A DNA stretch of 64,000 nucleotides from an uncultured Candidatus Saccharibacteria bacterium (GTDB lineage Bacteria; Patescibacteriota; Saccharimonadia; Saccharimonadales; Saccharimonadaceae): NCBI GenBank assembly GCA_964615445.1, contig CAZTOK010000004.1:7436-71435 (forward strand), in the 5' to 3' direction. Below the pieces are notes generated by a model. It made no database searches, had not been told where the DNA came from, and saw only the letters and a list, made by a program, of their open reading frames with translations. Within the stretch, counting starts at the first letter, position 1, and every line of letters starts with the position of its first letter. Both the position numbers and the translations under genes were made by a program. This document shows positions 40,593 through 58,674 of the stretch, piece after piece.

Positions 40593-41309
40593 TTACTGAG
40601 CGCCTACGGCATTATTGTCGATGAAGTACGTTGGTGCTGGAGTTGCTGGTGCGGTACTTGGTTCGCTGAAGTATGTATTAGTCTGCCGCAGTACATCTTC
40701 TGGTATGTTTGGATAATCAATTTTATTAAGCGTAATGTCTGGTTCGGTAGCAAGTGACCACTGGTCATTTACAAGATGAGCGATGAGGTGAAGCGTATCG
40801 CGATTGTCGGTGTCCGAACCTTTATACACCAGTGCTGTTCCGTACCACTCTCCTTGATCGAATAGTCTCCCCTCTTGCAGTGTGTAGGTAGATGGAACGG
40901 ATGGATACTTAGAAAAAATGAGCGACGTGAGGGCTGTTTGGTTTTTATCGAGTAACTGGCTAAGATAATCAGTCGAATAAGATACCGTAAATGTTTTTGT
41001 AATAGGTGTGTCACCGACTGTGATTGACATGGGGCTGGCGTCGATATTCATACCGCTTGCCTTGATAATGTATACGCCCTTAGTAATACTAAATGGTACG
41101 TTTGAAGTAATTGTTTGTATAGCTGGGCCACTGGTATCAGTTGAGGTGCCATCTTTAGCATGGTAGAGACTAAGTGTGACCCCTCCCTCTTTATTATCGA
41201 AGGTTATGGTAACTTTTTGCGGTGTACTAGTAAGGATGCCGTAGGCAATCAAGCCAATCACAACAAAGGTAATAACAATTCCAATAATTAAGACGATTCT
41301 TCGATTCAT
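40593..41309 (-). CDS. Bitopic membrane protein with a beta-rich ectodomain; last gene of the T4SS-like operon
   Basis: N-terminal TM (IVLIIGIVITFVVIGLIAYGIL). ATGA overlap with the upstream gene. No family recognised. Confidence 0.5.
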   Translation of the reverse strand: MNRRIVLIIGIVITFVVIGLIAYGILTSTPQKVTITFDNKEGGVTLSLYHAKDGTSTDTSGPAIQTITSNVPFSITKGVYIIKASGMNIDASPMSITVGDTPITKTFTVSYSTDYLSQLLDKNQTALTSLIFSKYPSVPSTYTLQEGRLFDQGEWYGTALVYKGSDTDNRDTLHLIAHLVNDQWSLATEPDITLNKIDYPNIPEDVLRQTNTYFSEPSTAPATPAPTYFIDNNAVGAQ

Positions 41310-41938
41310 TTTAGTTGACTCACGTAATTAGTATAGTTAATTTTGAAATCTGCCGGATTGAATCCCCAGTTGTATATTTTTTGGATAGCTTGATAACGGT
41401 ACATCGCAGAAACACCGGTAATTGTTAATTGAATGGTTTTATTATCGGATGACGTATAGCCAATACTATAGTAAGGGTCGTTGTAAGGGAGGTTTTTAAC
41501 GATTGGGTTAGTGTCTTGGAAACTTTGTGTAATAGCAGCTGCGCTTCTGGCGCCATCCTGCTCGGTTTGGAGATACAAGTCTTGATGGCCTGCTACCCAT
41601 TTCTTTGCATCGTCTGAGGCCGGAAGGAGCTGAATGTTGTAGATGCCTGTATCATTCGGTACGGTGAGCGTGTTGCTAAAGTCATCAAATCCGTCTTTAT
41701 GAGCGTGAATGCTATATGAGCCTGGCTTTAGGTAGAGAGTGCCTGGTGAAATAGTCTGAGAGTTGTTAAGTGTTACTGTCGCGTCTTGGGGTAGCAGTTT
41801 TAATGTAAGCTGTACTTTGTCTTGACGCTGTTGAGCGGTATATATCTGGTAAACAGTAAATCCTCCAATAGCAACAATGAGCGCGGCGGCAAGGATAATG
41901 ATCTGTCGACGATATTGTAAAAATAATTCCCCAAGCAT
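41306..41938 (-). CDS. Bitopic membrane protein with a PEGA-like domain
   Basis: N-terminal TM (IIILAAALIVAIGGFTVYQIY), then LYLKPGSYSIHAHKDGFDDFSNTLTV (PEGA-like). Confidence 0.5.
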   Translation of the reverse strand: MLGELFLQYRRQIIILAAALIVAIGGFTVYQIYTAQQRQDKVQLTLKLLPQDATVTLNNSQTISPGTLYLKPGSYSIHAHKDGFDDFSNTLTVPNDTGIYNIQLLPASDDAKKWVAGHQDLYLQTEQDGARSAAAITQSFQDTNPIVKNLPYNDPYYSIGYTSSDNKTIQLTITGVSAMYRYQAIQKIYNWGFNPADFKINYTNYVSQLK

Positions 41939-41943
41939 ATTTT

Positions 41944-43176
41944 CTATTTCTTTCTATACCAGTTAAAATGACTATCAGTTGGGCTTTGCACGTCGGCCAT
42001 TGGTGCACGTTCATCTAGTGAGGCAGAAGCAATTTTCTCAGGATTTCCATTGGCAACGGTACGGCCATGTGCCGGGTCGTCGCCAAAGCCACTAATCGCT
42101 CCTACCCATACGAATGTGTGTCCTTCCTGGCCCGTGAAAGAACTTTTAATGGCCACATCGCCGGGTTGTAAGTTGGCTGGATTGATAGTGCCTCCCGTTC
42201 CTAAGTATTGCCAGTTTTCTTTTAGCCATTTTTCCTGTGCATCGGTATTGCCACCACCTTTACTCGGAAGATCACCATAATTGTAATTTGGTTCAAAGCC
42301 ACTATTAATCATAAGAAGTGATACGAAGCCACCACAGTCAATACCAGGATGTACAGAACCTCCAACGTACATGTGATTGCTTTGTGCTTGTTGAACGGCA
42401 TCTGTCCAAGCTTGCTGTGCAACAATAGTGAGTCCTCGGTACTGTGGCCAAGCGTAGGCCATAACTTTATCGTTAAGCGTTCCATTTGAACAGCCAGTGC
42501 CGGCTGATGATCCTGACGGTGCACCACTTGGTAGTGTCGCGACCGGTGCGGCGTTTTTGTATTGGTCATATAGTTTTTTTGCATTACCGCCACGGTTAGC
42601 GATAATTTGCTCAAGCGTATCATTTGAACCTTCAAAGTCACGGTGGAATACAAATGCGGCTTGAATTGGATCAGACTGTGCAAGAAGCGACTGTAGTGCT
42701 TTTGAGTGGGTCGTTTGTAGTTCTTGCCAGCTGAAACCAAGTTGCCCACCCAGATCGGTAATACCTACTTTTTGATCTTTTATAAAGTTCTCAAGCGGTA
42801 TTTGACGAGAGCTGAAGGTCCATTGGGCAATACCGAAGCCCACGCCATCTTTTGGTACATAGCTGTCGTCAACAATTCTACCGCCCTGCTCTTTTGCGGA
42901 GTTAACGCCAGATTCGGCAATAAAGTTACCAACAATACCTGCGGCTTGGGCAAGATTAAGTCCCTTCCCCATATAAAAGTTGAGGGCTTTCTCGATAGCA
43001 TCCTTTCCATTGAGCGTGGTCGAGCCACATCCACCGCTGGCATCTGGATTGTAGTAAATGATATCGTTTCCACTATAAAAATTGCGATCGAATGCACTAA
43101 CCTCTTGCACTGAAGTTGCGGCTATAAGGATGGCAACAAGAGAGAGTGGTAAGATTTTACGATACCAACGTAGCAT
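41944..43176 (-). CDS. Secreted bifunctional peptidoglycan hydrolase: phage-tail-lysozyme-like domain plus NlpC/P60- or CHAP-like cysteine peptidase
   Basis: Signal/TM (ILPLSLVAILIAATSV). The lysozyme-type block is AAGIVGNFIAESGVNS...GFGIAQWTFSSR...QLGFSWQEL. The peptidase part has GIDCGGFVSLLM (Cys) and GHTFVWVG (His). Confidence 0.75.
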   Translation of the reverse strand: MLRWYRKILPLSLVAILIAATSVQEVSAFDRNFYSGNDIIYYNPDASGGCGSTTLNGKDAIEKALNFYMGKGLNLAQAAGIVGNFIAESGVNSAKEQGGRIVDDSYVPKDGVGFGIAQWTFSSRQIPLENFIKDQKVGITDLGGQLGFSWQELQTTHSKALQSLLAQSDPIQAAFVFHRDFEGSNDTLEQIIANRGGNAKKLYDQYKNAAPVATLPSGAPSGSSAGTGCSNGTLNDKVMAYAWPQYRGLTIVAQQAWTDAVQQAQSNHMYVGGSVHPGIDCGGFVSLLMINSGFEPNYNYGDLPSKGGGNTDAQEKWLKENWQYLGTGGTINPANLQPGDVAIKSSFTGQEGHTFVWVGAISGFGDDPAHGRTVANGNPEKIASASLDERAPMADVQSPTDSHFNWYRKK

Positions 43177-45716
43177 TAATACGTCCTTCCTGTTGCTATA
43201 GCATGAAGTAAACTACCAATAGTGGTTAGACTGAAAGGGTTAGTCGTGCCGACTGCTTGCTGGGATGGGTCATCATAAAATGCTTGCGTCGCTGGGCTGT
43301 TTGTTCCAGGCGATTCATCGATGGTATCATTCGCTGGGTGGTAGCCTGTGTAATCGCTAAACATTTCTAACTGCGGGGTGTCGGGAAGGCAATTTTTACC
43401 CGTATACCAATCGGCACTGTCGGTCATATCCTCGGCATTAACTGTGGTACTTCCCCAAGGGTCGGTCCGATTAACGCAGTATTTCAAGTAACGTTCATAA
43501 TCACTACCCGGCTTAGGGTTGCCGGCGACATCAATCTGCTGATATGTTTCCATGTAGTCAAGCACTTTGTTAGGGTCAGCCGAAGGGCCACCGGGGACAG
43601 TACGCACAACACATCCCATATCTGGCTGAATACCGGCATCGTTATAGTCAGAGTCATTCGTACACTGACTAAATCGGGTATCGCTGTAGTTTGATACTGG
43701 CATGCTGTAGGCGGCATTCGCGTTTTTTACTATGCTATTTAGCGATGTTGGCAAGGCTGAGAATACTTTACTAAAGGTTGAGAGGAATGGAACACTAGTA
43801 GCTGCTGGAGTGGTAGCAAATTGGTGCATCATCGATCCTAGGAATGAATAGCGGTTGGTAAACGCAAATGGTGTGTTGCGAGCGTCGTATTGCTCTATGG
43901 CAACTTGCTGCTGCTCCACCGCAGCATTATCAGCCATGTTTTTTCGTATAGCATCTAGCTTACCTGGCTTCAAACCAAAGTGCATAGCGGCACTCCCCAT
44001 GATACTAGCTGTTCCAATAAAGAGCACATTGCCCGCATCAACCCCGGCAACGCTTGAGGTAATGTCGGCACCTGCCGCGGCTTGAACCGCAGCATTTACT
44101 AGGTATCCTGCCCAATCTTCCACCGGAAGTATCGCAAAAAGTCCACTGAGTGCAACCGAGAAAATAGGCGCTGCTAAGAAACTGATGACGGTAGTAAGCG
44201 TATTATTAGTTATTTTACATACGTCTCTCATTGTCTCTTTGCCAATATGTGTCTTTATCCAGGACATGGCAGTGCCGAGCGCGCCAAGGAAGGCACCTCC
44301 AATAAATAATCGCTTAGCGATGCTTGAAAGATTAATGCTGTCGCCGTACGCTACTACTTTGTATGCCTCTGAGTCGAGCGCATTCTTCCCCTTATTTGGA
44401 TTATCAATCATTTGGCCGGTTTCGGGGTCCTGTATTTTATCTGGGAAGCTTGAGGGTGCTAAAATATCTACACCTTTTTGCACCTCGGCCCCAGTTGCTT
44501 GGTTTGCCTTAATGGAGGCTGCGAGGGTTAATATAGCCATAGCAAACGACATATACCTTGCTGCTTTAAGAACCTTTGCCGAGGTAGATATAATATTTCC
44601 CATGTTATAGCCTAGACAAATAAGTTGCGGCCCAAGCACGACATTGGATCCGTGTAGACTTAAGTGAGTAACTGTTTTACCTGCTTTTATTGCGCTATTT
44701 ATCGCGCTTGCCGTATCGTTTCCTGTAGCATTCGCTGCGGCTTTGGTTTTATCGCCGCTGTCGTCCGCTACTGCATTAGTGGATAAATCTTCCGACTGGC
44801 CTTTCACGGCTTCATCGAATGACTTATTGGCTTCGTCGGCAGTGTCGCCACTGATTTTTTTTGCTTTTGTAAGATGAAGGCCGCTTAATACTCCATCGAA
44901 AAACTTTCCTAAAAAGAAACTATTTTTAAGGCTATAGGCAGCATTAAAATGACTGGCAGCCTCGACGTCTGTTTTTAATATTGAACCTAGCTCGCTCACG
45001 TTACTTGCGCGCGGCCCGCTCCCTGGCGTGCCGTCCTCGCCCGGGAATTTAATAGCGGTAACTCCCACGCGGCTACCTTGAGTAGTTTTTCCTTCAAATG
45101 TAAAACCTTTAGATTCGAATTTCTTTACTGTTTCTTCGTCTATAGTATTAAATTTACAGCGAATCGAAACGACAGAGTTACAAGCGCTAAACTTCTTTTG
45201 TAAGCCGCCCAACTTGGTTCCGAAAAGATTAATGGTTTTAATCTGTTGCGAAGAATTAGCATCATTTGTATCGTTAGTGAATTCTTCCATAATATCAATG
45301 GGAAGAAGTGCTGCGAGTCCGGTAAATCCAAATGTCCCTCCGCCAAGAAGCAGTAGTAAAATAAATCCAAGTGGACCTTTTTTCCTTATTCTTCCTTTTA
45401 CTGCTTGTTTTTTTGGTTGTGTGCTACTAACATTGTCCTTCCAGCGCCCGTTTTGCTCTTGATCTCTGGTATCATCTATGTTTTTGGTTGATACGGCATG
45501 TAAATCACCGCGCTCCGAAGTTGTTTCGCCACCCCCTTGAATAACTCCAAAACGGTGTTCTTGTTCGCTTAAATCCTCTGAGATATTGTCATCTGGCACT
45601 GATGATAGGTTGCCACGTTCGGGAGTATAGTCGCCATCCCCCTGAATAACATGCAAATCGGGCCGAATAGTAGGCTCTATTTCTTCATGACGGGATTGAC
45701 GTGCGGGTTCGGCCAT
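43176..45716 (-). CDS. 846-aa polytopic membrane protein of unknown family (T4SS-like operon)
   Basis: An acidic N-terminus with a duplicated VIQGxGxxTxERGxL motif, a TM at GFILLLLLGGGTFGFTGLAALL, and further hydrophobic helices in the middle third. TAATG junctions on both sides. Confidence 0.55.
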   Translation of the reverse strand: MAEPARQSRHEEIEPTIRPDLHVIQGDGDYTPERGNLSSVPDDNISEDLSEQEHRFGVIQGGGETTSERGDLHAVSTKNIDDTRDQEQNGRWKDNVSSTQPKKQAVKGRIRKKGPLGFILLLLLGGGTFGFTGLAALLPIDIMEEFTNDTNDANSSQQIKTINLFGTKLGGLQKKFSACNSVVSIRCKFNTIDEETVKKFESKGFTFEGKTTQGSRVGVTAIKFPGEDGTPGSGPRASNVSELGSILKTDVEAASHFNAAYSLKNSFFLGKFFDGVLSGLHLTKAKKISGDTADEANKSFDEAVKGQSEDLSTNAVADDSGDKTKAAANATGNDTASAINSAIKAGKTVTHLSLHGSNVVLGPQLICLGYNMGNIISTSAKVLKAARYMSFAMAILTLAASIKANQATGAEVQKGVDILAPSSFPDKIQDPETGQMIDNPNKGKNALDSEAYKVVAYGDSINLSSIAKRLFIGGAFLGALGTAMSWIKTHIGKETMRDVCKITNNTLTTVISFLAAPIFSVALSGLFAILPVEDWAGYLVNAAVQAAAGADITSSVAGVDAGNVLFIGTASIMGSAAMHFGLKPGKLDAIRKNMADNAAVEQQQVAIEQYDARNTPFAFTNRYSFLGSMMHQFATTPAATSVPFLSTFSKVFSALPTSLNSIVKNANAAYSMPVSNYSDTRFSQCTNDSDYNDAGIQPDMGCVVRTVPGGPSADPNKVLDYMETYQQIDVAGNPKPGSDYERYLKYCVNRTDPWGSTTVNAEDMTDSADWYTGKNCLPDTPQLEMFSDYTGYHPANDTIDESPGTNSPATQAFYDDPSQQAVGTTNPFSLTTIGSLLHAIATGRTY

Positions 45717-45728: not shown

Positions 45729-47645
45729 TTATACCCCTAATCCGTTAGGATTTGGAGGTGTGCTCTGCGGATAAACACTGCTAGCATCGTATCCCTGTGT
45801 GGGTTGTTGTACTTGTGGTTGAGGCGCTGCTTGGGTATCGCCTGGGTTTGTTGTAATAAGACGTGTTTCGGTGTCGCTCCCAACAATTTGAATATGTACA
45901 TGATTTTGTCCTGCAAAGAAAAGCCCCTGCCCTACCGGGAAGTTAGCGAGACGTTTTCGCTCCTCTTCTGTTAGTTTAAAGACATCGGAAAGTACATCAA
46001 CAGCGCTAGCCGACTGTTTAAGGAGAAGCTGCATAGATGAGTTGGCTACGATGGCGCGGCCCATTTTGCTGCCCATAAAGTCTTCAACATCCTGTGTAAT
46101 AGTAGTAAGACCCAGGTAATATTTACGAGCGCGTTTTGCAAGACTAAAGAGGAAGTTAGCAGAATCGTCATACTTCATTAATTGCCAAGCCTCATCCACA
46201 ATAAGCATGCGTTTTCGCTGGTCGGTACGTGTAATGTTCCAAATGTGACTAAGCACGATATACATGGCAACTGGCCGAAGCTCATCCTCAAGGTCGCGAA
46301 TATTAAAGACGACCATGTGGTTATTAATGTCAATATTTGACTGCTGACTAAAAATACCTGCAAATGTACCACTAGTATATTTGCGAAGGCGCTGGGCCAA
46401 ACTTGGGCCAGTGCCACCCATATGGAGGAGTGTGTCGTATAGGTCGGCGATAGTTGGAGGTGTTGAGTTGTGCGTTAATGGATCGCTGGTAATTCCCGCT
46501 CGCGCATAGGTGTCAATCAAGCCTTGGTCAAGGTCGGCCTCTTCCGCCGGCGTGAGCGCAGACATCATTTGACCTGCTGCTGTTGTTTGGCTTCCACCAA
46601 GCATTAAGCGTAACAATCCGTGAAGTGTCACCAAGTTGGCTCGTAAGGCGTCGTCTGCCTCGTCGCTATCGATAACACGAGGTAAGTCAAAAGGATTAAC
46701 ACGTGTGTCGGCGTTAAGGCTAAGACGAATATAACTTCCGCCTACGGCGTCGCACAATTTTTGATACTCATTCTCAGGGTCAATAATAAGTACATCCGAA
46801 CCTACCATCATACTTCGTAGTGCCTCAAGCTTCACAGTAAATGACTTACCAGCACCAGATTTTGCGAAGACGACCATATTGGCATTTTCCAGGCTAAAAC
46901 GGTCAAAAATAACCAAGCCGTTATTATGCATATTTATGCCATAAAGCACGCCTTTTTCCTGCGTAAGGTCAGCACTTGTAAATGGAAAGCTGGTACTGAT
47001 GGCACCCGTATTCATATTACGGCGAATTTGGAGTTGGTCGGTCATTTGTGGAAGTGTGCTGTTGAGCCCTTGTTCCTGTTGGCTACTGGCTACCTTGCTA
47101 AAGATAAGCTGTTGGCCAAAAAGTGTCTCGATTTTATGTTGGACAAAGCTCAATTCATCCATACTGTCAGCGTATAGGGTTACATAAAGGCCAAAGCGAA
47201 AGAAACGTTCTGAGCCAACTTGAAGTTGATCTCGCAGTTCCTCGGCATCTTGCAAGGATGCCTCAAGTCCAGGGTCGCGCGTACGACCCTTCTCGCTATT
47301 AATCGACATCGTTGCTTCGAGCTGTGTCACCTTTTTGCGAAGATTGTTTAACACCACCTGGCTCTCAACCGGATAAACAAATATACTAATATCGAGCACC
47401 TCATCGATATTTATAAGAGAACTTAGCCAGCCGGTATAAATTTGGCGTGGATAGCCATAAATATATAATGTTCTGCCATATTTAGTGCCAAGGCGAAAGT
47501 GGCTCGAGTGGATTTCGAGACTGCTTGGCGCGATCAAGTCGCGTAGCGTGGTCATGCCCGTTAAAAAGGCTTGTTCAACCTCGGCTTGTTCGCGAGCTCG
47601 CTGCTGTGCGGCAATATCAATGGGATCTAACTTTTTCTTGGCCAT
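45729..47645 (-). CDS. virB4: VirB4/TrsE/PrgJ-like T4SS ATPase
   Basis: Walker A VVFAKSGAGKSFT and Walker B RMLIVDEAWQLM. The N-domain pattern is YGRTLYIYGYPRQIYTGWLSSL...LDISIFVYP, with the later block YYLGLTTITQDVEDF. Confidence 0.9.
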   Translation of the reverse strand: MAKKKLDPIDIAAQQRAREQAEVEQAFLTGMTTLRDLIAPSSLEIHSSHFRLGTKYGRTLYIYGYPRQIYTGWLSSLINIDEVLDISIFVYPVESQVVLNNLRKKVTQLEATMSINSEKGRTRDPGLEASLQDAEELRDQLQVGSERFFRFGLYVTLYADSMDELSFVQHKIETLFGQQLIFSKVASSQQEQGLNSTLPQMTDQLQIRRNMNTGAISTSFPFTSADLTQEKGVLYGINMHNNGLVIFDRFSLENANMVVFAKSGAGKSFTVKLEALRSMMVGSDVLIIDPENEYQKLCDAVGGSYIRLSLNADTRVNPFDLPRVIDSDEADDALRANLVTLHGLLRLMLGGSQTTAAGQMMSALTPAEEADLDQGLIDTYARAGITSDPLTHNSTPPTIADLYDTLLHMGGTGPSLAQRLRKYTSGTFAGIFSQQSNIDINNHMVVFNIRDLEDELRPVAMYIVLSHIWNITRTDQRKRMLIVDEAWQLMKYDDSANFLFSLAKRARKYYLGLTTITQDVEDFMGSKMGRAIVANSSMQLLLKQSASAVDVLSDVFKLTEEERKRLANFPVGQGLFFAGQNHVHIQIVGSDTETRLITTNPGDTQAAPQPQVQQPTQGYDASSVYPQSTPPNPNGLGV

Positions 47646-52438: not shown

Positions 52439-53362
52439 TTAACTATCTATTTTTGTAGCTTGCCAGCCAGTAAGGTCGTATTTATTGGCATTGTTTGGCT
52501 TTTGGATACCATAAGTTACCTTTAATTGAGTAAGTGTTCCGGGTAGTTGCTCACCGTCTTTATTAACGAAAGCATGTGTGATAGTAGCGGTATCTACAAG
52601 CCCATCGCTAAGTTCGCCAAGATGTGCGATACCAGGTTGAAGTACTTCGTAAACGCTTTTAGTTTGGTGTGTTATATTATACTGACGATTCTGACGAGCT
52701 ACTGCCAAAATTTCAGGCTGCTTTCCTTCAGCGGAAATTGCCTGTGAAAATGCCGCTTCGAACGCATCCTCGGCAGCCTGATTACGCACAGGCTTATTAA
52801 AAGCTATCGCACCATTTGCAGGATCTTCATATGCTTGAATGCTATCGAGAACTAAATGAGTAAAGCCATCTTTGTAGTCAGGTTTGTCATGAGCGGTTAC
52901 CTCGAACATTTTTGCGCAACTATCAATACCGTTGCATTCGGCAGCGCCAATCTGCATCTCAACCGTTTGCGGGTTAATCTGTATGTTTGGATTCGTTTGC
53001 ATCGTCTCGGTGGTTGAAGTGGCGGTCGTAGTGGTAGGTGCCGCTTCAGCGGAGCTAGTGGCTACGGGACCAGAAGCGCCAGAACTTTCCGACTGACTCA
53101 GACCAATAGCGGTACCAAGTCCGCTTGCAAGTAGGATGCCACCGATCGCAATAGCTATCCTTGTTCTAAGTTTCTTCTTAGCTTCTCTCTCTTTAGTTGT
53201 GGTAGTTGGTGTTTCTAAAGGAAGTTGTGCGTACCCACCTTCTCTAGGGGGAACTTCTTGTTTGGGAATTTGAAAGGCGGTTTCGTTACTTTCGGAGCCG
53301 GGCACAATACCCTCCCCCGTACGCTGTACGTCTTGTCTTCCTGGGTAGGTGTCGTGACTCAT
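52439..53362 (-). CDS. Bitopic membrane protein (VirB8/TcpC-like topology) between the two VirB6-like genes
   Basis: Cytoplasmic N-terminus, a TM (IAIAIGGILLASGLGTAIGL), a T/S/A-rich linker and a ~190-aa ectodomain. No motif recognised. Confidence 0.5.
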   Translation of the reverse strand: MSHDTYPGRQDVQRTGEGIVPGSESNETAFQIPKQEVPPREGGYAQLPLETPTTTTKEREAKKKLRTRIAIAIGGILLASGLGTAIGLSQSESSGASGPVATSSAEAAPTTTTATSTTETMQTNPNIQINPQTVEMQIGAAECNGIDSCAKMFEVTAHDKPDYKDGFTHLVLDSIQAYEDPANGAIAFNKPVRNQAAEDAFEAAFSQAISAEGKQPEILAVARQNRQYNITHQTKSVYEVLQPGIAHLGELSDGLVDTATITHAFVNKDGEQLPGTLTQLKVTYGIQKPNNANKYDLTGWQATKIDS

Positions 53363-53492: not shown

Positions 53493-56156
53493 CTATGGTT
53501 TGAGAAATTTCGCTTGTTCGGGCGTTGCTTGCCGCGTTTGTACTCGACCGCTCCTGCGAAGAGCATACTCAATGGTTTGAATCTCTTCTATACGATCACC
53601 AATTGTAGCGCGAATCTGATCGTTAGTGAGGGCCTCGAACACGTTATTGTATGCCTTGTTAAGGTCGTTTGTACTACCAACGGCGGTAATACTATTAATC
53701 TGGTTAGCCACCTCTTTAACCCAGCCAGCTTTAAGATCTTTCATGTTGCTTGCAGCTGTATCACCAAGTGAACCGGCGCGTGCCATGTTCATGTTTGTTA
53801 GGCTCACGCCCGCAAGCTTTGGATCCGCCTGAAGATGAAACCCACCTTTTACCTTCATAGTTGAGGCGTTACGGGCAATAACACGTGAAAGCATATCTTG
53901 ATCTATATGTACATCGTCCATACGTGCTTTTTCAAGAGCCACTACCTGGCCTTCTCGAGCCTGCATCTCAAGGGCAGCTTCGATTTCACTGCTATTGTAG
54001 TTCGTTGCACCTTTTATAACGTCGCTCACGACAGTACCAGAGAAGTCTTTCGGTGTTTGATTATTCTGCAGGGCACGATAGGTAATGAGTTTGACACCAG
54101 CATCAAGAGCGGCATCACTTTCTTTACTAAGCTCACTCACGGCGTGGGCCTGAGCCTTCACGGCACCAGATGGATCAATACCACCTGCTCGGCGACTAAG
54201 ATTTTGGTTAGTGTTAAGCGCCGTAGCAATTTGTTGCGTCTGAATAGTGCGAGCCGCGGCACCACGTTGCGTTTCAACACTTGTTTCAAGAGCATTATTC
54301 ATAATATCTTGCGCCATAACGTTGCGGCTATGAGCAAAGTTAGCAAGCGCACTTACAGATAGATTGTCGGGAACGACCATATTGCGAGAATCGCCCGCTC
54401 GAAATTCATCCCAGTTGGCATCAACCTGCGCCTTAGCAAGATCAACATTGAGCTTGCTTGCACGGGCGTTAAGCTCAAGTCCCTGAATGCGTGCATTAGT
54501 ATGTTTTTGCGCTTCAAAGCGCGCCTCAGCGGCTGTTTCACCACCCTGCTTCAAAAGCGCTGCCTCGAGTGCACGTTCATGAATATTGTGCGCACGATGA
54601 TCGTTTGCCCATTTCGCATCAACCATAGCCTCGTTCGCCTTCTGCCACCCTTCGCGCGCACGACGCTTGGCATCAATTCGTGCCGAGGTACGGTTTAAGA
54701 AATCGCGGCGGCGCATGCCAGGGTCAGCCAGTACACGGGCTTTTCTTTGTGCTGCGCGCTCTTCGGCAAACTTTCGTGTACGATCCACCAAGCCTTTGCT
54801 TGGGTTGTTGGCAAGGCCAGCAATGCGACCAAGCAGCGAACCGCTTAATCGGAGCAATAAAGGAGTAATGGCAAGCGGTGCAACCTGTACCGCCATACCT
54901 AAAATGATCAAGTTGATAGAGTCGGCATTCTGGATAATTGCAATTCCCGCTAGCTGAGACCCACCAAACACAAAAGCAAATATTGGGAACATAATAAGCA
55001 TCGTCGAAAAGAGCTCATGCCATTTTTTAAAATACTTTTCGGTATTTGGTAGTAAGAATGCAACAAAGGCGAGCGGTGACACAATAATAAGCACTGTAAT
55101 AATAGCTTGACGCGCAGCCAGTACAACAAGGGCAATGAAGATGGCAAGAAGGAGTCCTGCAAGAATCGGTAAGAGCAGTGTAATAGACCCTCCAACCGTC
55201 GCCGCAAGGGCACTATGAAGTGCTAGGCCACCAGCCAACGCAGCCGTTCCGCCTGAGAGAATAAACCCTGCTATGCTTTTAAAACTAATAACCGACCACT
55301 GATTACCACCATTTCCAATGACAGTATCATGAATCGACATAAATAAATGTTCAATCGAATATCCTAAGACGTTGGAGGCATCCACTGCAATCGCACACAC
55401 CCAATACGACACGTTGACGAGTATGGCGGCAACAATCAGCCGAGGAAGCATCTTTTTAACGTTGTAGTTAGAAAGACCAACGCTTGTGAGTTGTGAGTAA
55501 ATAACAACAATAAATCCAATAACAAATACCACGTTTGCGAAATTACGCATGACTGACCAAATAGTAAATAGTGCATTATTCTGATCTGTTGATACCGGTC
55601 GAACAGTTAAGAAACCACTGACAATGCCAAAGATCCAGTCCATAGCGTTTGCGAGAAAATTTGTGGCTGGGCAAATTATCCAGCCTAGCCCAAACGTAAA
55701 CGAGCTGTCACAGGAGGTAGCCTGTTTAGCACCTGATTGTGGTGTGATAGTGATGGTTGTTTTATCAGTGGGGTTTGTGTATCCGTCAGGCGGTGTGTAA
55801 TCAAATACGACATATCCTGCAGAAGTTGCCTTGGAGGTGTCCACTCCGGCTGCAAAGTAAATGATGTGCATTTTCTCCGGGCCGCCATTTGCTGCCGGCT
55901 CTATAAAGGTGTACAGCTGCGTACCCTGGTTTAATCCTCGGCTATCATTCGTACCAGCGGTTCCGTTTTGTTGGTACTGATTGTTAAGATATGAAATATT
56001 ACTTCCATCCCATGCGGCTGTAGCTTCGTCAGCTCGAGTAGTAGGACTGCTGGCGAGTATAAATGCTAAACAAGCTGCAATCGTTGCAGCAGCAAAAAGA
56101 AAAAGATTCCGTACGGATAGTCTACCGAACGGGCGAGCTACTCGCAGATCCCACAT
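53493..56156 (-). CDS. Giant VirB6/TrbL-like polytopic protein (paralogue B)
   Basis: Same architecture as 49515-52385. Shared blocks are FGLGWIICPATNF, NYNVKKMLPRLIVAAILVNVSYWVCAIAVDASNVLG and RQAIITVLIIVSPLAFVAFLLPNTEKYFKKWHELF. Confidence 0.6.
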   Translation of the reverse strand: MWDLRVARPFGRLSVRNLFLFAAATIAACLAFILASSPTTRADEATAAWDGSNISYLNNQYQQNGTAGTNDSRGLNQGTQLYTFIEPAANGGPEKMHIIYFAAGVDTSKATSAGYVVFDYTPPDGYTNPTDKTTITITPQSGAKQATSCDSSFTFGLGWIICPATNFLANAMDWIFGIVSGFLTVRPVSTDQNNALFTIWSVMRNFANVVFVIGFIVVIYSQLTSVGLSNYNVKKMLPRLIVAAILVNVSYWVCAIAVDASNVLGYSIEHLFMSIHDTVIGNGGNQWSVISFKSIAGFILSGGTAALAGGLALHSALAATVGGSITLLLPILAGLLLAIFIALVVLAARQAIITVLIIVSPLAFVAFLLPNTEKYFKKWHELFSTMLIMFPIFAFVFGGSQLAGIAIIQNADSINLIILGMAVQVAPLAITPLLLRLSGSLLGRIAGLANNPSKGLVDRTRKFAEERAAQRKARVLADPGMRRRDFLNRTSARIDAKRRAREGWQKANEAMVDAKWANDHRAHNIHERALEAALLKQGGETAAEARFEAQKHTNARIQGLELNARASKLNVDLAKAQVDANWDEFRAGDSRNMVVPDNLSVSALANFAHSRNVMAQDIMNNALETSVETQRGAAARTIQTQQIATALNTNQNLSRRAGGIDPSGAVKAQAHAVSELSKESDAALDAGVKLITYRALQNNQTPKDFSGTVVSDVIKGATNYNSSEIEAALEMQAREGQVVALEKARMDDVHIDQDMLSRVIARNASTMKVKGGFHLQADPKLAGVSLTNMNMARAGSLGDTAASNMKDLKAGWVKEVANQINSITAVGSTNDLNKAYNNVFEALTNDQIRATIGDRIEEIQTIEYALRRSGRVQTRQATPEQAKFLKP

Positions 56157-56293
56157 ATCCCTGTTATGGTATCACTTTATAGGTTAAAAGTCAATCTTAT
56201 TGCCTCATTTTACGTCCATCCTACGCATGTGATTTTTCGCTCTGCAAGAAACCCTTGCAAGGTATCTTTTTTTATCGTATTTTATAGATAGGT

Positions 56294-56677
56294 ATGAAGG
56301 TAAAACAAAAAATAGCAACACTCATAATACTAGCCGTGTCGTTCTGTGCGGTTGTAACGCCTGCGGCCTTAGCAGATTGTGGTGGCGTAAAAACGGCCAT
56401 TCTCCAATGTGATCAGACTGGCAAAGGTACAAGCGCCAAGGATAGTGGCATATGGGGCATTTTGCTTATTGGCCTTAACATCCTTACTGGTGGCATTGGC
56501 ATCGCGGCTGTCGGCGGTATCGTTTATGGGGCTATTCTCTATACGAGCGCCGGCGATAGGGCCGACCAAGTAAAGAAGGCTGTCTCCGTTATTACCAATG
56601 TGGTTATAGGTCTTGCTGCATACGGGCTCATGTATATATTGCTTAACTTCCTTATTCCAGGCGGAATATTTAGCTAA
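56294..56677 (+). CDS. VirB2/TrbC-like T4SS pilin paralogue 1
   Basis: Signal peptide, a Cys pair (ADCGGVKTAILQC), then two TM helices around the loop YTSAGDRADQVKKA. Confidence 0.7.
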   Translation: MKVKQKIATLIILAVSFCAVVTPAALADCGGVKTAILQCDQTGKGTSAKDSGIWGILLIGLNILTGGIGIAAVGGIVYGAILYTSAGDRADQVKKAVSVITNVVIGLAAYGLMYILLNFLIPGGIFS

Positions 56678-56692
56678 AGGAGCTCAATAAAG

Positions 56693-57118
56693 ATGAAACG
56701 ACTACTACAAAACTGGATTGCGGCAATTCTCTTCGTTCTCACATTCGGTGGCGCGTTTGGTGTGGTTGCTTTGCCACAGACTACCTTTGCTGCTTGTAAC
56801 GACCACCTTTTAACATTCCCTGCCTGGTATAGAGGATTAACTGACGGCGATTGTAATATTAAAAGTCCTACAGATTCAGGTGGACTACCTAAGTTTGTAT
56901 GGACCATCGCACTCAACTTTATTGAAATTATGTTGCAACTTGTCGGCTATATTTCAGTAGCCTTTATCATTGTGGGTGGATTTACGTATATGACCAGCGC
57001 TGGGTCACCTGACGGCGCGGCTCGCTCGCGTAAGACGATCACGAATGCAGTTATAGGGCTGGTTATATCTATTTTCTCGGTCGGTATTGTGAACGTTGTC
57101 ACAGGAGCGCTGAAATGA
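56693..57118 (+). CDS. VirB2/TrbC-like T4SS pilin paralogue 2
   Basis: Signal peptide ending TFA/AC, a Cys pair (AACNDH...DGDCNIK), and a TM-loop-TM core GGFTYMTSAGSPDGAARSRKTITNAVIGLVISIF. Confidence 0.7.
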   Translation: MKRLLQNWIAAILFVLTFGGAFGVVALPQTTFAACNDHLLTFPAWYRGLTDGDCNIKSPTDSGGLPKFVWTIALNFIEIMLQLVGYISVAFIIVGGFTYMTSAGSPDGAARSRKTITNAVIGLVISIFSVGIVNVVTGALK

Positions 57119-57414
57119 GCGTGTTACGATTTTTAGCGGCTAGTTCCGATAAAATTGATCCCGGATCTATCGGGTTACAAAGTCCTCCAACGGATGCTAA
57201 CTCGGTGCTCGCGAACGTACTTACCACCGTATACGCTTGGGCTGGCATTATTTGTATTATTATTGTGATTGTTGGAGGTTATCTTTATGTTACTTCAGCA
57301 TCAAATGCATCACAGGTAAAGCGCGCTAAAGATGCTATCATTGGGGCTATCATCGGCCTCGTTGTTATTATGATGGCATTTGTTATTACGCAATTTGTTT
57401 TAGGGAGGTTTTAG
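57115..57414 (+). CDS. VirB2/TrbC-like T4SS pilin paralogue 3 (short, no obvious signal peptide)
   Basis: Core GGYLYVTSASNASQVKRAKDAIIGAIIGLVVIMMAF. ATGA overlap with paralogue 2. Confidence 0.65.
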   Translation: MSVLRFLAASSDKIDPGSIGLQSPPTDANSVLANVLTTVYAWAGIICIIIVIVGGYLYVTSASNASQVKRAKDAIIGAIIGLVVIMMAFVITQFVLGRF

Positions 57415-57789
57415 ATGAAAAAGTGGAAATCGGTTGTTATTATGATTGGCTGTCTTTTTGGCGTAACTGTCGCTATGGTTCCGACTTCTAGCACGTATGC
57501 AATTAACGTATTTAATCAATGTTCGGGGAACGCAGATTCTGCGGTTTGTAAGGCATCGGGAACCGATAATGCAACAAGTATGATTAAAATTGTTGTTAAT
57601 ACCCTACTCTTTATCCTAGGTATTATTTCAGTCATTATGATTATCATTGGCGGCCTTCGATATACTACCTCCGGAGGCGATAGTAGCGCTACCAAGGCTG
57701 CGAAGGATACAATTCTCTATGCGGTTATTGGACTCGTGGTGGCAATGCTTTCATTTACTATTGTTAATTATGTAATAGCACAATTTTAA
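57415..57789 (+). CDS. VirB2/TrbC-like T4SS pilin paralogue 4
   Basis: Signal peptide, a Cys pair (NQCSGNADSAVC), and the core GGLRYTTSGGDSSATKAAKDTILYAVIGLVVAMLSFTIVNYVI. Confidence 0.75.
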   Translation: MKKWKSVVIMIGCLFGVTVAMVPTSSTYAINVFNQCSGNADSAVCKASGTDNATSMIKIVVNTLLFILGIISVIMIIIGGLRYTTSGGDSSATKAAKDTILYAVIGLVVAMLSFTIVNYVIAQF

Positions 57790-57802
57790 GGAGAACAAAA
57801 AA

Positions 57803-58165
57803 ATGAAAAAACTCAAACTGCTGTTTATATCCGTGTTTGCCCTTATGGGAGTAGCAACGATGGTCCCTATGTATGCCTATGCGTCACCCGGTGATCAGAT
57901 TCAAAAAGGTGTCAATTCGGTGAGTGACGGGAGTAAAACCGATATAGCCGTGAGTTTCAAAACGATTGTCAACGTTATCTTGTTTGTCCTCGGTGCCATC
58001 TCGGTCATCATGATCGTTATTGGAGGTGTTCGCTACACCGTCTCTGGGGGTGACAGCGGAAGTACAAAAGGGGCTAAGGATACTATTCTCTATGCAGTTG
58101 TTGGTCTTGTAGTAGCAATGCTTGCGTATGCTATTGTCAACTTTGTCATAACCAGCTTTAAGTAA
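57803..58165 (+). CDS. VirB2/TrbC-like T4SS pilin paralogue 5
   Basis: Signal peptide (AYA/SP) and the core GGVRYTVSGGDSGSTKGAKDTILYAVVGLVVAMLAYAIVNFVI. Confidence 0.75.
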   Translation: MKKLKLLFISVFALMGVATMVPMYAYASPGDQIQKGVNSVSDGSKTDIAVSFKTIVNVILFVLGAISVIMIVIGGVRYTVSGGDSGSTKGAKDTILYAVVGLVVAMLAYAIVNFVITSFK

Positions 58166-58236
58166 AAAGTATTAACAAAAAGTAACGCTTCTGCTATAAA
58201 GTAGATAGAGTAAATCCTACAGGAAAGGAAAAATAA

Positions 58237-58674
58237 ATGAAAAATAATATTAAGAAAAGTCTACAGGCGCTCCTTCTTGTCCCTGTTATTGCACTTGGAG
58301 TAAGCGGGGTTGCTAGTTTTGTAAGCACGCCTGCAGCACAAGCTCAGGCAGCAGCATGTACAAACGGTGCGAGCGGTGGTTTAGCTGGCGGTGCAGGTTG
58401 TGCTAAAGGTAATGACCAGCAGACCGATCTCTTTGGTCAAAACGGTATCTTCAAGACTATTACGAACGTGCTCCTCTTCATCATTGGTGCCATATCAGTA
58501 ATCATGCTTATCATTGGTGGTATTCGCTATGTGGTTTCCGGTGGTGATAGTGGTGCTGTAACAAGTGCAAAGAACACCATTCTTTATGCTGTGGTTGGTG
58601 TAGTTATCTCAATCCTCGCCTACGCACTCGTTAACTTCGTTATCGGCAGCTTTGCTTCAACAAGTGGTAGCTAG
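58237..58674 (+). CDS. VirB2/TrbC-like T4SS pilin paralogue 6
   Basis: Signal peptide (AQA/QA), a Cys pair (AACTNGASGGLAGGAGC), and the core GGIRYVVSGGDSGAVTSAKNTILYAVVGVVISILAYALVNFVI. Confidence 0.75.
   Translation: MKNNIKKSLQALLLVPVIALGVSGVASFVSTPAAQAQAAACTNGASGGLAGGAGCAKGNDQQTDLFGQNGIFKTITNVLLFIIGAISVIMLIIGGIRYVVSGGDSGAVTSAKNTILYAVVGVVISILAYALVNFVIGSFASTSGS

What the first reader, a model, noticed from the sequence alone, without database searches (positions are those of the whole stretch)
40593..58674. Origin-proximal chromosomal T4SS-like machine with no relaxase or coupling protein, mostly built from unassignable proteins
Ten co-directional minus-strand genes run from 56156 down to 40593 and are tightly packed; four junctions overlap: TAATG at 47645 and 43176, ATGA at 41306-41309. 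A divergent six-gene pilin operon lies at 56294-58674.

Together they encode:
- a VirB4-like ATPase (GAGKS, LIVDEAW)
- a PrgI/VirB3-like protein
- two giant VirB6-like polytopic proteins
- a lysozyme+NlpC/P60 wall hydrolase
- three bitopic proteins
- VirB2-like pilins

Within the window I see no VirD4/TcpA-type coupling ATPase, relaxase, integrase or replication gene. Base composition looks like the neighbouring core genes. The cluster starts 11 bp after recF, about 3.8 kb from the dnaA start. That pattern fits a domesticated chromosomal apparatus rather than a conjugative element.

The rest of the window looks like a reduced episymbiont, which suggests a host-contact, effector, DNA or nutrient-transfer machine. 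Seven proteins have no family I can recognise: the 846-, 956-, 887-, 307-, 278-, 238- and 210-aa products. Most of the machine is therefore undescribed.
Basis: partly seen in the sequence, partly recalled or inferred. Interest (0 to 1): 0.85.

Follow-up and report, generated by a model that had tools for sequence, protein, structure and literature searches.

The report
Known Saccharibacteria type IV secretion locus
This is the chromosomal type IV secretion and pilin gene cluster that sits next to the replication origin in Saccharibacteria (TM7) episymbionts; it is real and correctly read, but it was already published and shown to be essential for growth on a host, so this copy is an ordinary new example.

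Summary
Ten tightly packed minus-strand genes lie at 40593-56156. A divergent six-gene pilin operon lies at 56294-58674. The cluster starts 10 bp after recF and 3.9 kb from the dnaA start. The window holds no relaxase, coupling ATPase or integrase. HMM searches support VirB4, PrgI/VirB3, lysozyme and T4SS pilins.

The locus is not new. It matches, gene for gene, the T4SS of Southlakia epibionticum ML1 (SEML1_0004-0019). Wang et al. 2023 showed that system to be essential for epibiotic growth, with a pilin array and no recognisable relaxase or coupling protein. Quinonero-Coronel et al. 2025 surveyed the system across Patescibacteria, including its position near dnaA.

"Mostly unassignable" is overstated.
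- The 887- and 956-aa proteins are VirB6/TrbL paralogues.
- The 278-aa protein is TrsD-like, equivalent to a split-off VirB4 N-terminal domain.
- The 210-aa protein has a PEGA domain.
- The 307-aa protein is possibly VirB8-like, but the test was inconclusive.
- The 846-aa protein belongs to a large uncharacterised family. Relatives carry interchangeable wall-hydrolase or EEP C-terminal domains.

Substrate and direction of transport remain unknown. Novelty: already known. Interest: low.

The parts
53493..56156 (-). VirB6/TrbL-like polytopic membrane protein, paralogue 1 (887 aa). First gene of the operon. It has a signal or TM segment, a variable extracellular N-terminal domain, a conserved TM core (residues about 144-477) and a long helical cytoplasmic tail.
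   Evidence: - 41% identical to the 956-aa protein over 346 aa, E = 2e-84.
- 7 of 12 family members hit Pfam TrbL PF04610, best 2.3e-7.
- The family profile's only PDB hit is TrwI, the VirB6 of R388, at E = 0.17.
- TM segments.
- The positional equivalent in ML1, SEML1_0013, is essential.
52439..53362 (-). Fast-evolving bitopic protein (307 aa). It has a Pro-rich cytoplasmic N-terminus, one TM segment (about 69-87), a Ser/Thr-rich linker and an alpha+beta C-terminal domain. It is possibly VirB8/NTF2-like.
   Evidence: - Only one non-self homologue among 5.8 billion proteins, at 50% identity.
- No tblastn hit in 80 related loci.
- Bitopic ORFs of similar size occupy the same slot in at least 14 loci, but they are only twilight-similar to each other.
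- The structure model is poor (pLDDT 39).
- Foldseek top hits are NTF2-like T4SS proteins (IcmL-like 5cnl at E = 0.065, CagV, Rickettsia VirB8-like). None is significant.
- The ML1 positional equivalent, SEML1_0012, is annotated NTF2-like (ECOD e4ec6D1) and is non-essential.
49515..52385 (-). VirB6/TrbL-like polytopic membrane protein, paralogue 2 (956 aa). It has a Cys-rich extracellular N-terminal domain.
   Evidence: The positional equivalent in ML1 is SEML1_0011, annotated as a 'Type IV secretion system protein' structural match and scored essential.
48513..49478 (-). PrgI/VirB3-like membrane protein (321 aa) with a long Pro-rich C-terminal extension.
   Evidence: Pfam PF12666 PrgI at 3.8e-13, 50.2 bits, above the gathering score. 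Present in 38 of 38 full-flank loci at a median 55% identity.
47645..48481 (-). TrsD-like protein (278 aa). It is homologous to the N-terminal domain of full-length VirB4. Its stop overlaps the virB4 start by 1 nt (TAATG).
   Evidence: - NCBIfam TrsD NF041427 at 8.4e-6, below the curated cutoff. It also matches positions 232-280 of the VirB4_plasma profile, just upstream of where the 638-aa protein starts matching (292-893).
- 13 of 13 family members hit TrsD (best 1.9e-7) and VirB4_plasma. 6 of 13 hit TIGR00929 VirB4_CagE.
- Present in 38 of 38 loci at a median 64% identity.
45729..47645 (-). VirB4-family ATPase (638 aa) with Walker A GAGKS and Walker B LIVDEAW. It is the only T4SS ATPase in the window.
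43176..45716 (-). Large membrane-associated protein of an uncharacterised T4SS-linked family (846 aa, the 'short form'). It has a disordered cytoplasmic N-terminus, TM segments and 8 conserved Cys.
   Evidence: - No Pfam or NCBIfam hit.
- The family has 1,457 representatives at E <= 1e-3 in an exhaustive profile search.
- 37 of 38 related loci have an ORF of 789-1540 aa in this slot.
- Among 34 such proteins, Peptidase_M23 occurs in 14, VanY in 10, Exo_endo_phos in 5, Peptidase_C39_2 in 3 and CHAP in 2. The window copy has none.
- The model has pLDDT 49.6 and no PDB fold match.
- The ML1 equivalent, SEML1_0007, is essential.
41944..43176 (-). Secreted cell-wall hydrolase (410 aa). It has a Phage_lysozyme2 domain and a C-terminal Cys-peptidase-like domain (weak NlpC/P60 hit). 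It plays the VirB1-type role.
   Evidence: Pfam PF18013 at 7.7e-28 and NlpC/P60 at 0.072. The ML1 equivalent, SEML1_0006, has two lysozyme-like domains plus a cysteine proteinase and is essential.
41306..41938 (-). Bitopic PEGA-domain protein (210 aa).
   Evidence: Pfam PEGA PF08308 at 9e-5, 22.7 bits against a cutoff of 20.8. The ML1 equivalent, SEML1_0005, is a PEGA protein and is essential.
40593..41309 (-). Bitopic protein (238 aa), last gene of the operon. It is convergent with recF, 10 nt away.
   Evidence: No family hit here. Homologues were detected in 11 of 38 loci at about 26% identity. The ML1 equivalent, SEML1_0004, has published fold calls of prealbumin-like plus BT0923-like and is essential.
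56157..56293 (.). 137-bp divergent intergenic region between the apparatus operon and the pilin operon. It presumably holds the promoters.
   Evidence: The consensus promoter scan gave no more hits than chance.
56294..58674 (+). Array of six divergent VirB2-like T4SS pilin genes (127, 141, 99, 124, 120 and 145 aa). Most have a signal peptide plus a two-TM hairpin.
   Evidence: PF18895 T4SS_pilin, with five of six above the gathering score. The 99-aa protein also hits TrbC/VirB2 PF04956 at 2e-5. Alignment A5 shows 22-29% identity to the first pilin. TM segments.
60057..60467 (-). Seventh T4SS_pilin gene (136 aa), lying between two tRNA-Ser genes and outside the finding's range.
   Evidence: PF18895 at 6.9e-9. 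tRNA genes. It aligns with the other pilins.
36727..40582 (+). Context: dnaA, dnaN and recF, which mark the replication-origin region.
   Evidence: Pfam hits. GC-skew minimum.

Best explanation
**What it is.** This is the Saccharibacteria (Patescibacteria-clade) type IV secretion system. It derives from the monoderm conjugation machinery (MPF-FATA), is fixed in the chromosome beside oriC, and is used for the epibiotic lifestyle rather than for conjugation.

**Parts shown by homology.**
- The motor is a VirB4 ATPase whose N-terminal domain is encoded separately, as in the TrsD/TrsE arrangement.
- A PrgI/VirB3-like protein and two VirB6/TrbL paralogues form the membrane platform and channel.
- A lysozyme plus Cys-peptidase hydrolase provides cell-wall cutting.
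- Seven VirB2-like pilins are encoded nearby.

**How it likely works (inferred).**
- VirB4 hexamers dock on the PrgI and VirB6 proteins.
- The hydrolases open peptidoglycan. This includes the 846-aa scaffold family, whose relatives carry M23, VanY, CHAP or EEP domains. The peptidoglycan opened may be the cell's own and probably the host's.
- The pilins polymerise into a short pilus or conduit that reaches the actinobacterial host envelope.
- The bitopic proteins (307, 210 and 238 aa) brace the channel across the wall, playing a VirB8-like or stalk role.

**Transport.** No coupling ATPase or relaxase accompanies the cluster. Classical relaxase-led DNA export is therefore unlikely. I expect the machine to work as a contact-dependent conduit. 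My estimates are about 45% for import of host macromolecules or nucleic acids (as in ComB and Ced), about 40% for export of Sec-delivered or hydrolytic effectors (as in Ptl), and about 15% for adhesion or wall-breaching only.
For: **Identity of the parts.**
- VirB4.
- TrsD-like.
- PrgI and lysozyme.
- VirB6.
- Pilins.

**Taxon and fixation.**
- VirB4 homologues are 85-96% identical in Saccharimonadales and Saccharibacteria MAGs and in Nanosynbacter.
- dnaA lies near virB4 in 36 of 38 related loci and dnaN in 37 of 38. The gene order is conserved.
- Composition matches the host genome.
- No att repeats, integrase, relaxase or second ATPase were found.

**Published equivalent.**
- The ML1 order is dnaA-dnaN-recF, then SEML1_0004-0013 on the minus strand, six pilins on the plus strand, then Hsp20 and tRNA-Ser. 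Gene lengths and Pfam hits are matching, and nearly all of the genes are essential in Tn-seq (PMC10633639).
- The survey reports a Patescibacteria VirB4 clade sister to MPF-FATA, TrsD next to virB4, VirB2 arrays, rare relaxases and proximity to dnaA (PMC12102498).

**Conduit idea.**
- It is discussed in PMC12857230 and PMC11665869.
- Tubular structures at a Patescibacteria-host interface are reported in 10.64898/2026.06.21.733656.
Against: - Orthology to ML1 rests on gene order, lengths and shared Pfam and fold labels from the published tables. I did not have ML1 sequences to align.
- Only 64 kb of the genome is visible, so a VirD4-like gene or a relaxase elsewhere cannot be excluded.
- No pilus, substrate or direction of transport has been shown for any member.
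- The VirB8-like call for the 307-aa protein is inconclusive.
- The 846- and 238-aa proteins have no assignable fold here.
- The related loci were chosen by VirB4 similarity, which inflates VirB4 identity somewhat relative to the other genes.
Confidence: 0.88

Rival explanations
1. It is a conventional, or recently decayed, integrative conjugative element of the Gram-positive type. Its relaxase, coupling protein and integrase would lie outside the window or have been lost.
For: - The closest curated family for the ATPase is a conjugative one, NF045971 CD1110.
- The component set resembles the monoderm conjugation apparatus: PrgI, TrsD, VirB6 and a wall hydrolase.
- Two tRNA-Ser genes lie 1.2-2 kb beyond the pilin operon.
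Against: - No relaxase, T4CP, integrase or att repeat was found in 64 kb.
- The cluster lies between recF and Hsp20 with native composition.
- The same position next to dnaA and dnaN is seen in 36-37 of 38 related genomes.
- VirB4 is more conserved than DnaA in the same genomes (87% against 72% median identity). That fits vertical inheritance under strong selection.
- It is essential in ML1.
- Relaxases were found in only 103 Patescibacteria genomes.
Confidence: 0.03
2. It is a Ptl-like toxin exporter. Under this reading the six small signal-peptide proteins are secreted toxin or effector subunits rather than pilins.
For: - The small-gene array flanked by T4SS genes resembles the ptx/ptl layout (PMC7427843).
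- Most of the small proteins have N-terminal signal-like hydrophobic segments.
- The system lacks a nearby coupling protein, as Ptl does.
Against: - The proteins match the T4SS_pilin family PF18895, with five of six above the gathering score. One also hits TrbC/VirB2.
- All seven share the two-TM hairpin typical of VirB2.
- McLean et al. reported only 11% identity to pertussis toxin S1.
Confidence: 0.05
3. It is an adhesion and wall-breaching organelle only. The pilus and hydrolases would hold and open the host envelope, while transport of material uses other systems such as T4P, competence proteins or transporters.
For: - Wall hydrolases are abundant and variable in the cluster.
- The surface-exposed parts are fast-evolving.
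- No substrate-recruiting ATPase was found.
Against: A VirB4 motor plus two VirB6 channel proteins kept under very strong conservation is more machinery than adhesion would need. Type IV pili already provide adhesion in Saccharibacteria.
Confidence: 0.12

Closest known systems
T4SS of Candidatus Southlakia epibionticum ML1 (SEML1_0004-0019; Wang et al. 2023, Cell; PMC10633639)
   Same: - The neighbourhood and gene order are the same: dnaA-dnaN-recF, then a convergent minus-strand operon, a divergent six-pilin operon, then Hsp20 and tRNA-Ser.
- The operon order is: bitopic protein, PEGA, lysozyme, large scaffold, VirB4, TrsD-like, PrgI, VirB6-like, small bitopic protein, VirB6-like.
- The Pfam hits are the same: PF12666, PF18013 and six copies of PF18895.
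- Neither locus has a relaxase or coupling gene.
   Different: - Protein lengths differ: lysozyme 410 against 643 aa, scaffold 846 against 1113 aa, and VirB6-like 887 and 956 against 1088 and 998 aa.
- The window's scaffold lacks the C-terminal DD-peptidase domain.
- The window has a seventh pilin gene between the tRNA-Ser genes.
- No experimental data exist for this organism.
Patescibacteria-clade T4SS as catalogued by Quinonero-Coronel et al. 2025 (Microb Genom; PMC12102498)
   Same: - A VirB4 related to MPF-FATA.
- A TrsD homologue beside virB4.
- PrgI-type VirB3 and VirB6.
- A VirB2 array of 2-11 genes.
- No relaxase.
- Proximity to dnaA, dnaN and rnpA.
   Different: Nothing essential differs. 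I did not run a VirB4 phylogeny, so clade membership is inferred from the 85-96% identity to Saccharimonadales proteins.
Monoderm conjugative T4SSs of class MPF-FATA (pCF10 Prg/Pcf, pIP501 Tra, pGO1 Trs, CTn2/CD1110)
   Same: - A VirB4 of the CD1110 family.
- A TrsD-like partner, as in pGO1.
- PrgI and a VirB6/PrgH-type channel protein.
- Multi-domain wall hydrolases, as with PrgK, TraG and TcpG.
- No outer-membrane core.
   Different: - No relaxase, T4CP or oriT context.
- Chromosomal and vertically inherited.
- It has VirB2-like pilins, which Gram-positive systems lack.
- It has duplicated VirB6 genes.
- It has no PrgB-type adhesin.
T4CP-less T4SSs: Helicobacter pylori ComB, archaeal Ced (DNA import), Bordetella Ptl (toxin export)
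   Same: They operate with a VirB4-type ATPase and no coupling protein, as the FEMS review states for Ptl and Brucella VirB. That ComB and Ced also lack a coupling protein, and import DNA, rests on my own knowledge. The window's ATPase gives a weak CedB hit at 2.5e-11. These systems are the precedent for import or two-step export.
   Different: ComB and Ptl are diderm systems with VirB7-10 cores. Ced has unrelated membrane parts. No direct homology beyond VirB4, VirB2, VirB3 and VirB6 was tested.
Nanosynbacter lyticus TM7x T4SS region (McLean et al. 2020; PMC7427843)
   Same: VirB4, VirB6 and PrgI plus an array of 4-6 small Sec-signal proteins, conserved across Saccharibacteria. A Nanosynbacter locus (L041) shares the core order.
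   Different: In the oral group the slot between the two VirB6 genes is reduced or empty. Those authors read the small proteins as secreted effectors.

Membership tests
Patescibacteria/Saccharibacteria-type T4SS (S. epibionticum SEML1_0004-0019 type) | VirB4 ATPase of the Patescibacteria lineage | tested here: met
   It passes the NF045971 cutoff and matches 4AG5 at 1e-49. The best homologues are 85-96% identical Saccharimonadales and Saccharibacteria proteins. No phylogeny was run.
Patescibacteria/Saccharibacteria-type T4SS (S. epibionticum SEML1_0004-0019 type) | TrsD-like gene immediately upstream of virB4 | tested here: met
   The 278-aa protein has a 1-nt overlap with virB4. It hits TrsD at 8.4e-6, and 13 of 13 relatives hit TrsD and the N-terminal part of VirB4 models. 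All scores are below NCBIfam's curated cutoff, so this is homology rather than strict family membership.
Patescibacteria/Saccharibacteria-type T4SS (S. epibionticum SEML1_0004-0019 type) | PrgI/VirB3 and VirB6-like membrane components next to virB4 | tested here: met
   PrgI scores above the Pfam gathering score. VirB6 is supported by paralogy, by transitive TrbL hits in 7 of 12 relatives, and by a sole weak PDB hit to TrwI.
Patescibacteria/Saccharibacteria-type T4SS (S. epibionticum SEML1_0004-0019 type) | Array of divergent VirB2-like pilin genes in the cluster | tested here: met
   Six genes in tandem plus a seventh nearby, matching PF18895.
Patescibacteria/Saccharibacteria-type T4SS (S. 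epibionticum SEML1_0004-0019 type) | Chromosomal, near dnaA, with no relaxase alongside | tested here: met
   This applies to the window and 10-kb flanks of relatives only.
Patescibacteria/Saccharibacteria-type T4SS (S. epibionticum SEML1_0004-0019 type) | Required for epibiotic growth | not testable with these tools
   Shown only for ML1, by Tn-seq.
Conjugative T4SS / ICE (MPF-FATA) | Relaxase (MOB) associated with the MPF genes | tested here: not met
   No relaxase family hit in any ORF of the window at E <= 1e-3.
Conjugative T4SS / ICE (MPF-FATA) | Type IV coupling protein (VirD4/TcpA) | tested here: not met
   No such Pfam or NCBIfam hit. VirB4 is the only T4SS P-loop protein in the window. 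The rest of the genome is unseen.
Conjugative T4SS / ICE (MPF-FATA) | Integrase and flanking att repeats, foreign composition | tested here: not met
VirB8-like (NTF2-fold) T4SS component, for the 307-aa protein | Bitopic topology with a C-terminal NTF2-like domain | tested here: inconclusive
   The topology fits. The model has pLDDT 39. Foldseek top hits are NTF2-like T4SS proteins, but all have E >= 0.065. Profiles find nothing in the PDB.
Bordetella Ptx/Ptl-like toxin locus | The small-gene array encodes toxin subunits rather than pilins | tested here: not met
   The array members are T4SS_pilin/VirB2-like.

The most novel reading that the evidence does not exclude
The locus combines an ultra-conserved motor with a rapidly turning-over outer face.

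**The motor.** VirB4 has a median identity of 87% across relatives. That is higher than DnaA (72%) in the same genomes.

**The outer face.**
- The 307-aa slot protein has a single detectable homologue among 5.8 billion sequences.
- The 846-aa scaffold family has C-termini that swap between M23, VanY, CHAP, C39-like and EEP nuclease/phosphatase modules.
- There are seven divergent pilins.

The novel reading is that these variable parts set host range. Under this reading the machine is an importer that breaches the host wall and pulls in host nucleic acids or other macromolecules, as ComB and Ced do, rather than exporting effectors.
Probability: 0.25. Interest if true: 0.7.

Novelty: already known. 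Interest (0 to 1): 0.15.

Why it matters
The T4SS of Saccharibacteria is one of the few machines known to be essential for the epibiotic lifestyle of Patescibacteria. Its substrate and direction of transport are an open question. This window does not add a new kind of system. It is another copy of the published locus, from an uncultured soil-type Saccharimonadales genome.

Its use is comparative. It shows which parts are invariant: VirB4, the TrsD-like protein, PrgI and the VirB6 TM core. It also shows which parts vary: the slot protein, the scaffold C-termini, the hydrolases and the pilins. That contrast can guide the choice of targets for host-range or mechanism experiments in cultivable relatives.

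Tried and rejected
- **307-aa structure.** The prediction used a two-sequence alignment. It gave pLDDT 39, so the Foldseek hits are only suggestive.
- **846-aa structure.** The prediction used 21 sequences. It gave pLDDT 49.6 and no meaningful PDB fold match.
- **Slot-protein profile.** A profile of the slot proteins against PDB sequences gave no hits. hhalign of the 307-aa pair against the slot proteins of other loci aligned only the TM and juxtamembrane segment.
- **TrsD-family profile.** Searched against PDB sequences, it gave no hits. BLASTP of the 278-aa protein against the 638-aa protein found nothing. Homology to the VirB4 N-terminal domain is visible only through HMMs.
- **Lysozyme.** The 410-aa protein found nothing useful among PDB sequences.
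- **Seeing beyond the window.** Exact-protein look-ups either failed or returned only a 1.2-kb contig. The cluster look-up gave no accession or name.
- **Promoters and terminators.** The promoter scan gave no more hits than chance. The terminator-like hits were not evaluated.
- **238-aa against 210-aa.** Only the TM regions are similar.
- **ICE reading.** Rejected, see the rival explanations.
- **Direct repeat D1.** The 12-nt seed at 35808 and 60687 was rejected as an att site, because it would enclose dnaA, dnaN and recF.

Full report

Yes. The ORF list reproduces every coordinate. Ten co-directional minus-strand ORFs run from 56156 down to 40593, encoding 887, 307, 956, 321, 278, 638, 846, 410, 210 and 238 aa. 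Six plus-strand small ORFs lie at 56294-58674.

Gaps inside the big operon range from -4 to 130 nt. The quoted overlaps are real: TAATG at 47645 and 43176, and ATGA at 41306-41309. The fourth overlap is ATGA at 57115-57118, inside the pilin operon.

recF ends at 40582, 10 nt before the convergent 238-aa gene. dnaA starts at 36727. The cumulative GC skew has its minimum at about 36-40 kb. GC is 0.452 in the cluster and 0.435 elsewhere.

The 100-aa ORF at 49478-49780 overlaps the 956-aa gene in another frame. I treat it as spurious.

**2. Do HMMs back the assignments?**

- **638-aa protein (VirB4).** It hits Pfam TraG P-loop at 6e-29 and AAA_10. It passes the curated cutoff of NCBIfam NF045971, the CD1110 family of VirB4-like conjugal transfer ATPases (371.6 against 325 bits). 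It matches the solved VirB4 ATPase domain 4AG5 at 1e-49 and TrwK weakly.
- **321-aa protein.** PrgI (PF12666) at 3.8e-13.
- **410-aa protein.** Phage_lysozyme2 at 7.7e-28, plus a weak NlpC/P60 signal.
- **Pilins.** Five of the six small proteins exceed the gathering score of PF18895 T4SS_pilin. The sixth scores 0.012. One also hits TrbC/VirB2. A seventh pilin gene lies at 60057-60467 (-), between two tRNA-Ser genes. All seven align as signal peptide plus two-TM hairpin.

**3. Is anything conjugative nearby?**

No. Pfam scans of all other sizeable ORFs of the window find the following:
- a 33-kb rhamnose, glycosyltransferase and Wzm/Wzt surface-glycan cluster
- rnpA-yidC-jag
- dnaA-dnaN-recF
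- Hsp20
- a transglutaminase-like protein

There is no relaxase, VirD4/TcpA, integrase or Rep. The only convincing Walker-A proteins are Wzt, DnaA, RecF and VirB4. Direct-repeat search gives only short chance matches.

**4. What organism is it, and is the locus fixed?**

The VirB4 protein has more than 8,000 homologues. The top ones are 88-96% identical and are named Candidatus Saccharimonadales bacterium.

A scan of one genome per GTDB species returned 80 loci. Nearly all are titled Saccharibacteria, Saccharimonadales, Saccharimonas or Nanosynbacter. A few carry generic or other bin names.

Among the 38 loci with full 10-kb flanks, tblastn results were as follows:

| Protein | Loci with a hit (of 38) | Median identity |
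|---|---|---|
| DnaA | 36 | 72% |
| DnaN | 37 | 65% |
| RecF | 15 | 55% |
| TrsD-like (278 aa) | 38 | 64% |
| PrgI | 38 | 55% |
| VirB6-like TM core | 38 | 37-38% |
| Lysozyme | 32 | about 31% |

The gene order is conserved: VirB6 (one or two copies), PrgI, TrsD-like, VirB4, large scaffold, lysozyme, PEGA, small bitopic protein. This is vertical inheritance of a chromosomal apparatus, not an ICE.

**5. It is already published.**

- **Wang et al. 2023 (PMC10633639).**
  - They describe an 'apparent T4SS (SEML1_0006-0019)' in Southlakia epibionticum ML1. It is essential in Tn-seq during co-culture.
  - Their Tables S1 and S2 give this order:
    - dnaA (0001), dnaN (0002) and recF (0003)
    - on the minus strand: 0004 (249 aa), 0005 (PEGA, 211 aa), 0006 (lysozyme-like, 643 aa) and 0007 (1113 aa)
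    - then 0008 (VirB4/TraC-like, 612 aa), 0009 (293 aa), 0010 (PrgI, 300 aa) and 0011 (998 aa)
    - then 0012 (278 aa, NTF2-like, non-essential) and 0013 (1088 aa, TrbL/VirB6-like)
    - then six PF18895 pilins on the plus strand, followed by Hsp20 and tRNA-Ser
  - That is the window's layout, gene for gene.
- **Quinonero-Coronel et al. 2025 (PMC12102498).** They show the following:
  - a Patescibacteria VirB4 clade related to MPF-FATA
  - TrsD homologues beside virB4
  - PrgI-type VirB3
  - VirB6
  - VirB2 arrays of 2-11 genes
  - rare relaxases
  - T4CP homologues mostly far from virB4
  - proximity to dnaA, dnaN and rnpA
- **Earlier and later coverage.** McLean et al. 2020 had already noted the region in TM7x. 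The system features in a 2025 T4SS review and a 2024 perspective.

**6. What are the 'unassignable' proteins?**

- **887 and 956 aa.**
  - They are paralogues, 41% identical over a 346-aa TM core, E = 2e-84.
  - Seven of 12 family members hit Pfam TrbL/VirB6, best 2.3e-7.
  - The family profile's only PDB match among 177,635 sequences is TrwI, the VirB6 of R388. The match is weak (E = 0.17) but falls on the conserved Trp-containing segment.
- **278 aa.**
  - It matches NCBIfam TrsD at 8.4e-6.
  - It also matches positions 232-280 of a full-length VirB4 model. The 638-aa protein matches positions 292-893 of the same model.
  - All 13 relatives tested hit TrsD and VirB4 N-terminal regions.
  - The VirB4 is therefore effectively split into a TrsD-like N-domain gene and an ATPase gene, whose stop and start overlap.
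- **210 aa.** It has a PEGA domain.
- **307 aa.**
  - It is the oddest component. It has one non-self homologue in 5.8 billion proteins and none in 80 related loci.
  - A bitopic ORF of 250-340 aa sits in the same slot in at least 14 loci. These ORFs are only twilight-similar to each other.
  - Its model is poor.
  - The Foldseek top list is enriched for NTF2-like T4SS proteins (IcmL-like, CagV, Rickettsia VirB8-like) without significance.
  - The VirB8-like call is therefore inconclusive.
- **846 aa.**
  - It belongs to a large family with no Pfam model: 1,457 representatives at 50% clustering.
  - In 37 of 38 loci an ORF of 789-1540 aa follows virB4.
  - Among 34 of these, 14 carry Peptidase_M23, 10 VanY, 5 an EEP nuclease/phosphatase domain, 3 Peptidase_C39_2 and 2 CHAP. 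The window's copy has none.
  - Its model found no fold match.
- **238 aa.** It stays unassigned here.

**7. How it most likely works.**

Shown by homology:
- a VirB4 motor with a separate N-domain
- a PrgI/VirB3 anchor
- two VirB6 channel proteins
- wall hydrolases
- VirB2-like pilins

Inferred: assembly of a monoderm-type channel that extends a short VirB2 pilus to the host envelope, with hydrolases opening peptidoglycan. With no coupling ATPase or relaxase in sight, classical DNA export is unlikely.

There are precedents for systems without a coupling protein. From my own knowledge, ComB and Ced import DNA. Ptl and Brucella VirB perform two-step export. The field currently speculates about effector delivery or uptake of host molecules. 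Tubular structures that may be T4SS pili were seen at another Patescibacteria-host interface. I lean slightly towards import (about 45%) over export (about 40%). Nothing here decides it.

**8. Verdict.**

- The claims of undescribed machinery and novelty do not hold.
- The window's copy is an orthologue of a published, experimentally probed system.
  - the split-VirB4 reading
  - the contrast between an ultra-conserved motor and a hypervariable outer face
  - the modular C-termini of the scaffold family
- Caveat: the related loci were picked by VirB4 similarity, and ML1 orthology rests on published tables, not on alignments.

Noticed in passing
window 45729-47645 compared with 36727-39537; loci L001-L080: In the same related genomes VirB4 is more conserved (median 87% aa identity) than DnaA (72%), DnaN (65%) or RecF (55%). 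The surface parts of the cluster are 20-45% identical or undetectable. The loci were chosen by VirB4 similarity, so the contrast is somewhat inflated.
   Followed up: partly
window 52439-53362 (-); slots in L004, L006, L009, L010, L012, L017, L018, L021, L025, L028, L033, L035, L071, L072: A hypervariable gene slot lies between the two VirB6 paralogues. It always holds a bitopic protein of about 250-340 aa, but the sequences are barely related between genomes. The window's version has a single homologue in 5.8 billion proteins. In the oral Nanosynbacter-type loci the slot is small or empty.
   Followed up: partly
window 43176-45716 (-); ORFs starting about 11.8-12.0 kb in 37 loci: The large protein after virB4 belongs to an unnamed family with 1,457 representatives. 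Its C-terminus is modular across genomes (M23, VanY, CHAP, C39-like), and in 5 of 34 cases it is an Exo_endo_phos (EEP) nuclease/phosphatase domain. The window copy is a short form without any such module.
   Followed up: partly
window 59922-60665: A seventh T4SS_pilin gene (60057-60467, -) is sandwiched between tRNA-Ser(tga) at 59922-60011 and tRNA-Ser(gct) at 60573-60665, downstream of Hsp20. The 65-aa ORF at 59815-60012 overlaps the first tRNA and is probably spurious.
   Followed up: partly
window 36000-56156: The GC-skew minimum at about 36-40 kb places the origin by dnaA. The ten-gene T4SS operon on the minus strand is therefore transcribed head-on to replication, although it lies within 4-20 kb of the origin.
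   Followed up: no
window 1-33000: A large surface-glycan locus is present. It includes dTDP-rhamnose synthesis genes, many GT2/GT4 glycosyltransferases, WbsX/RgpF rhamnan-type enzymes, a Wzm/Wzt ABC exporter, GtrA-like flippases, and secreted DUF4082+fn3 (610 aa) and DUF5648 (572 aa) proteins.
   Followed up: no
window 61449-62399 (+) and 60725-61291 (-): A transglutaminase-like / EDR1-peptidase-like protein of 316 aa lies here, with weak Pfam hits. Next to it is a 188-aa two-TM protein with no family. Both lie just beyond the pilin and tRNA region. Neither was found in the related loci.
   Followed up: no
window 38162-38431 (+): An 89-aa ORF between dnaA and dnaN overlaps the dnaA stop and has no Pfam hit. 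ML1 also has a 266-nt gap between dnaA and dnaN.
   Followed up: no
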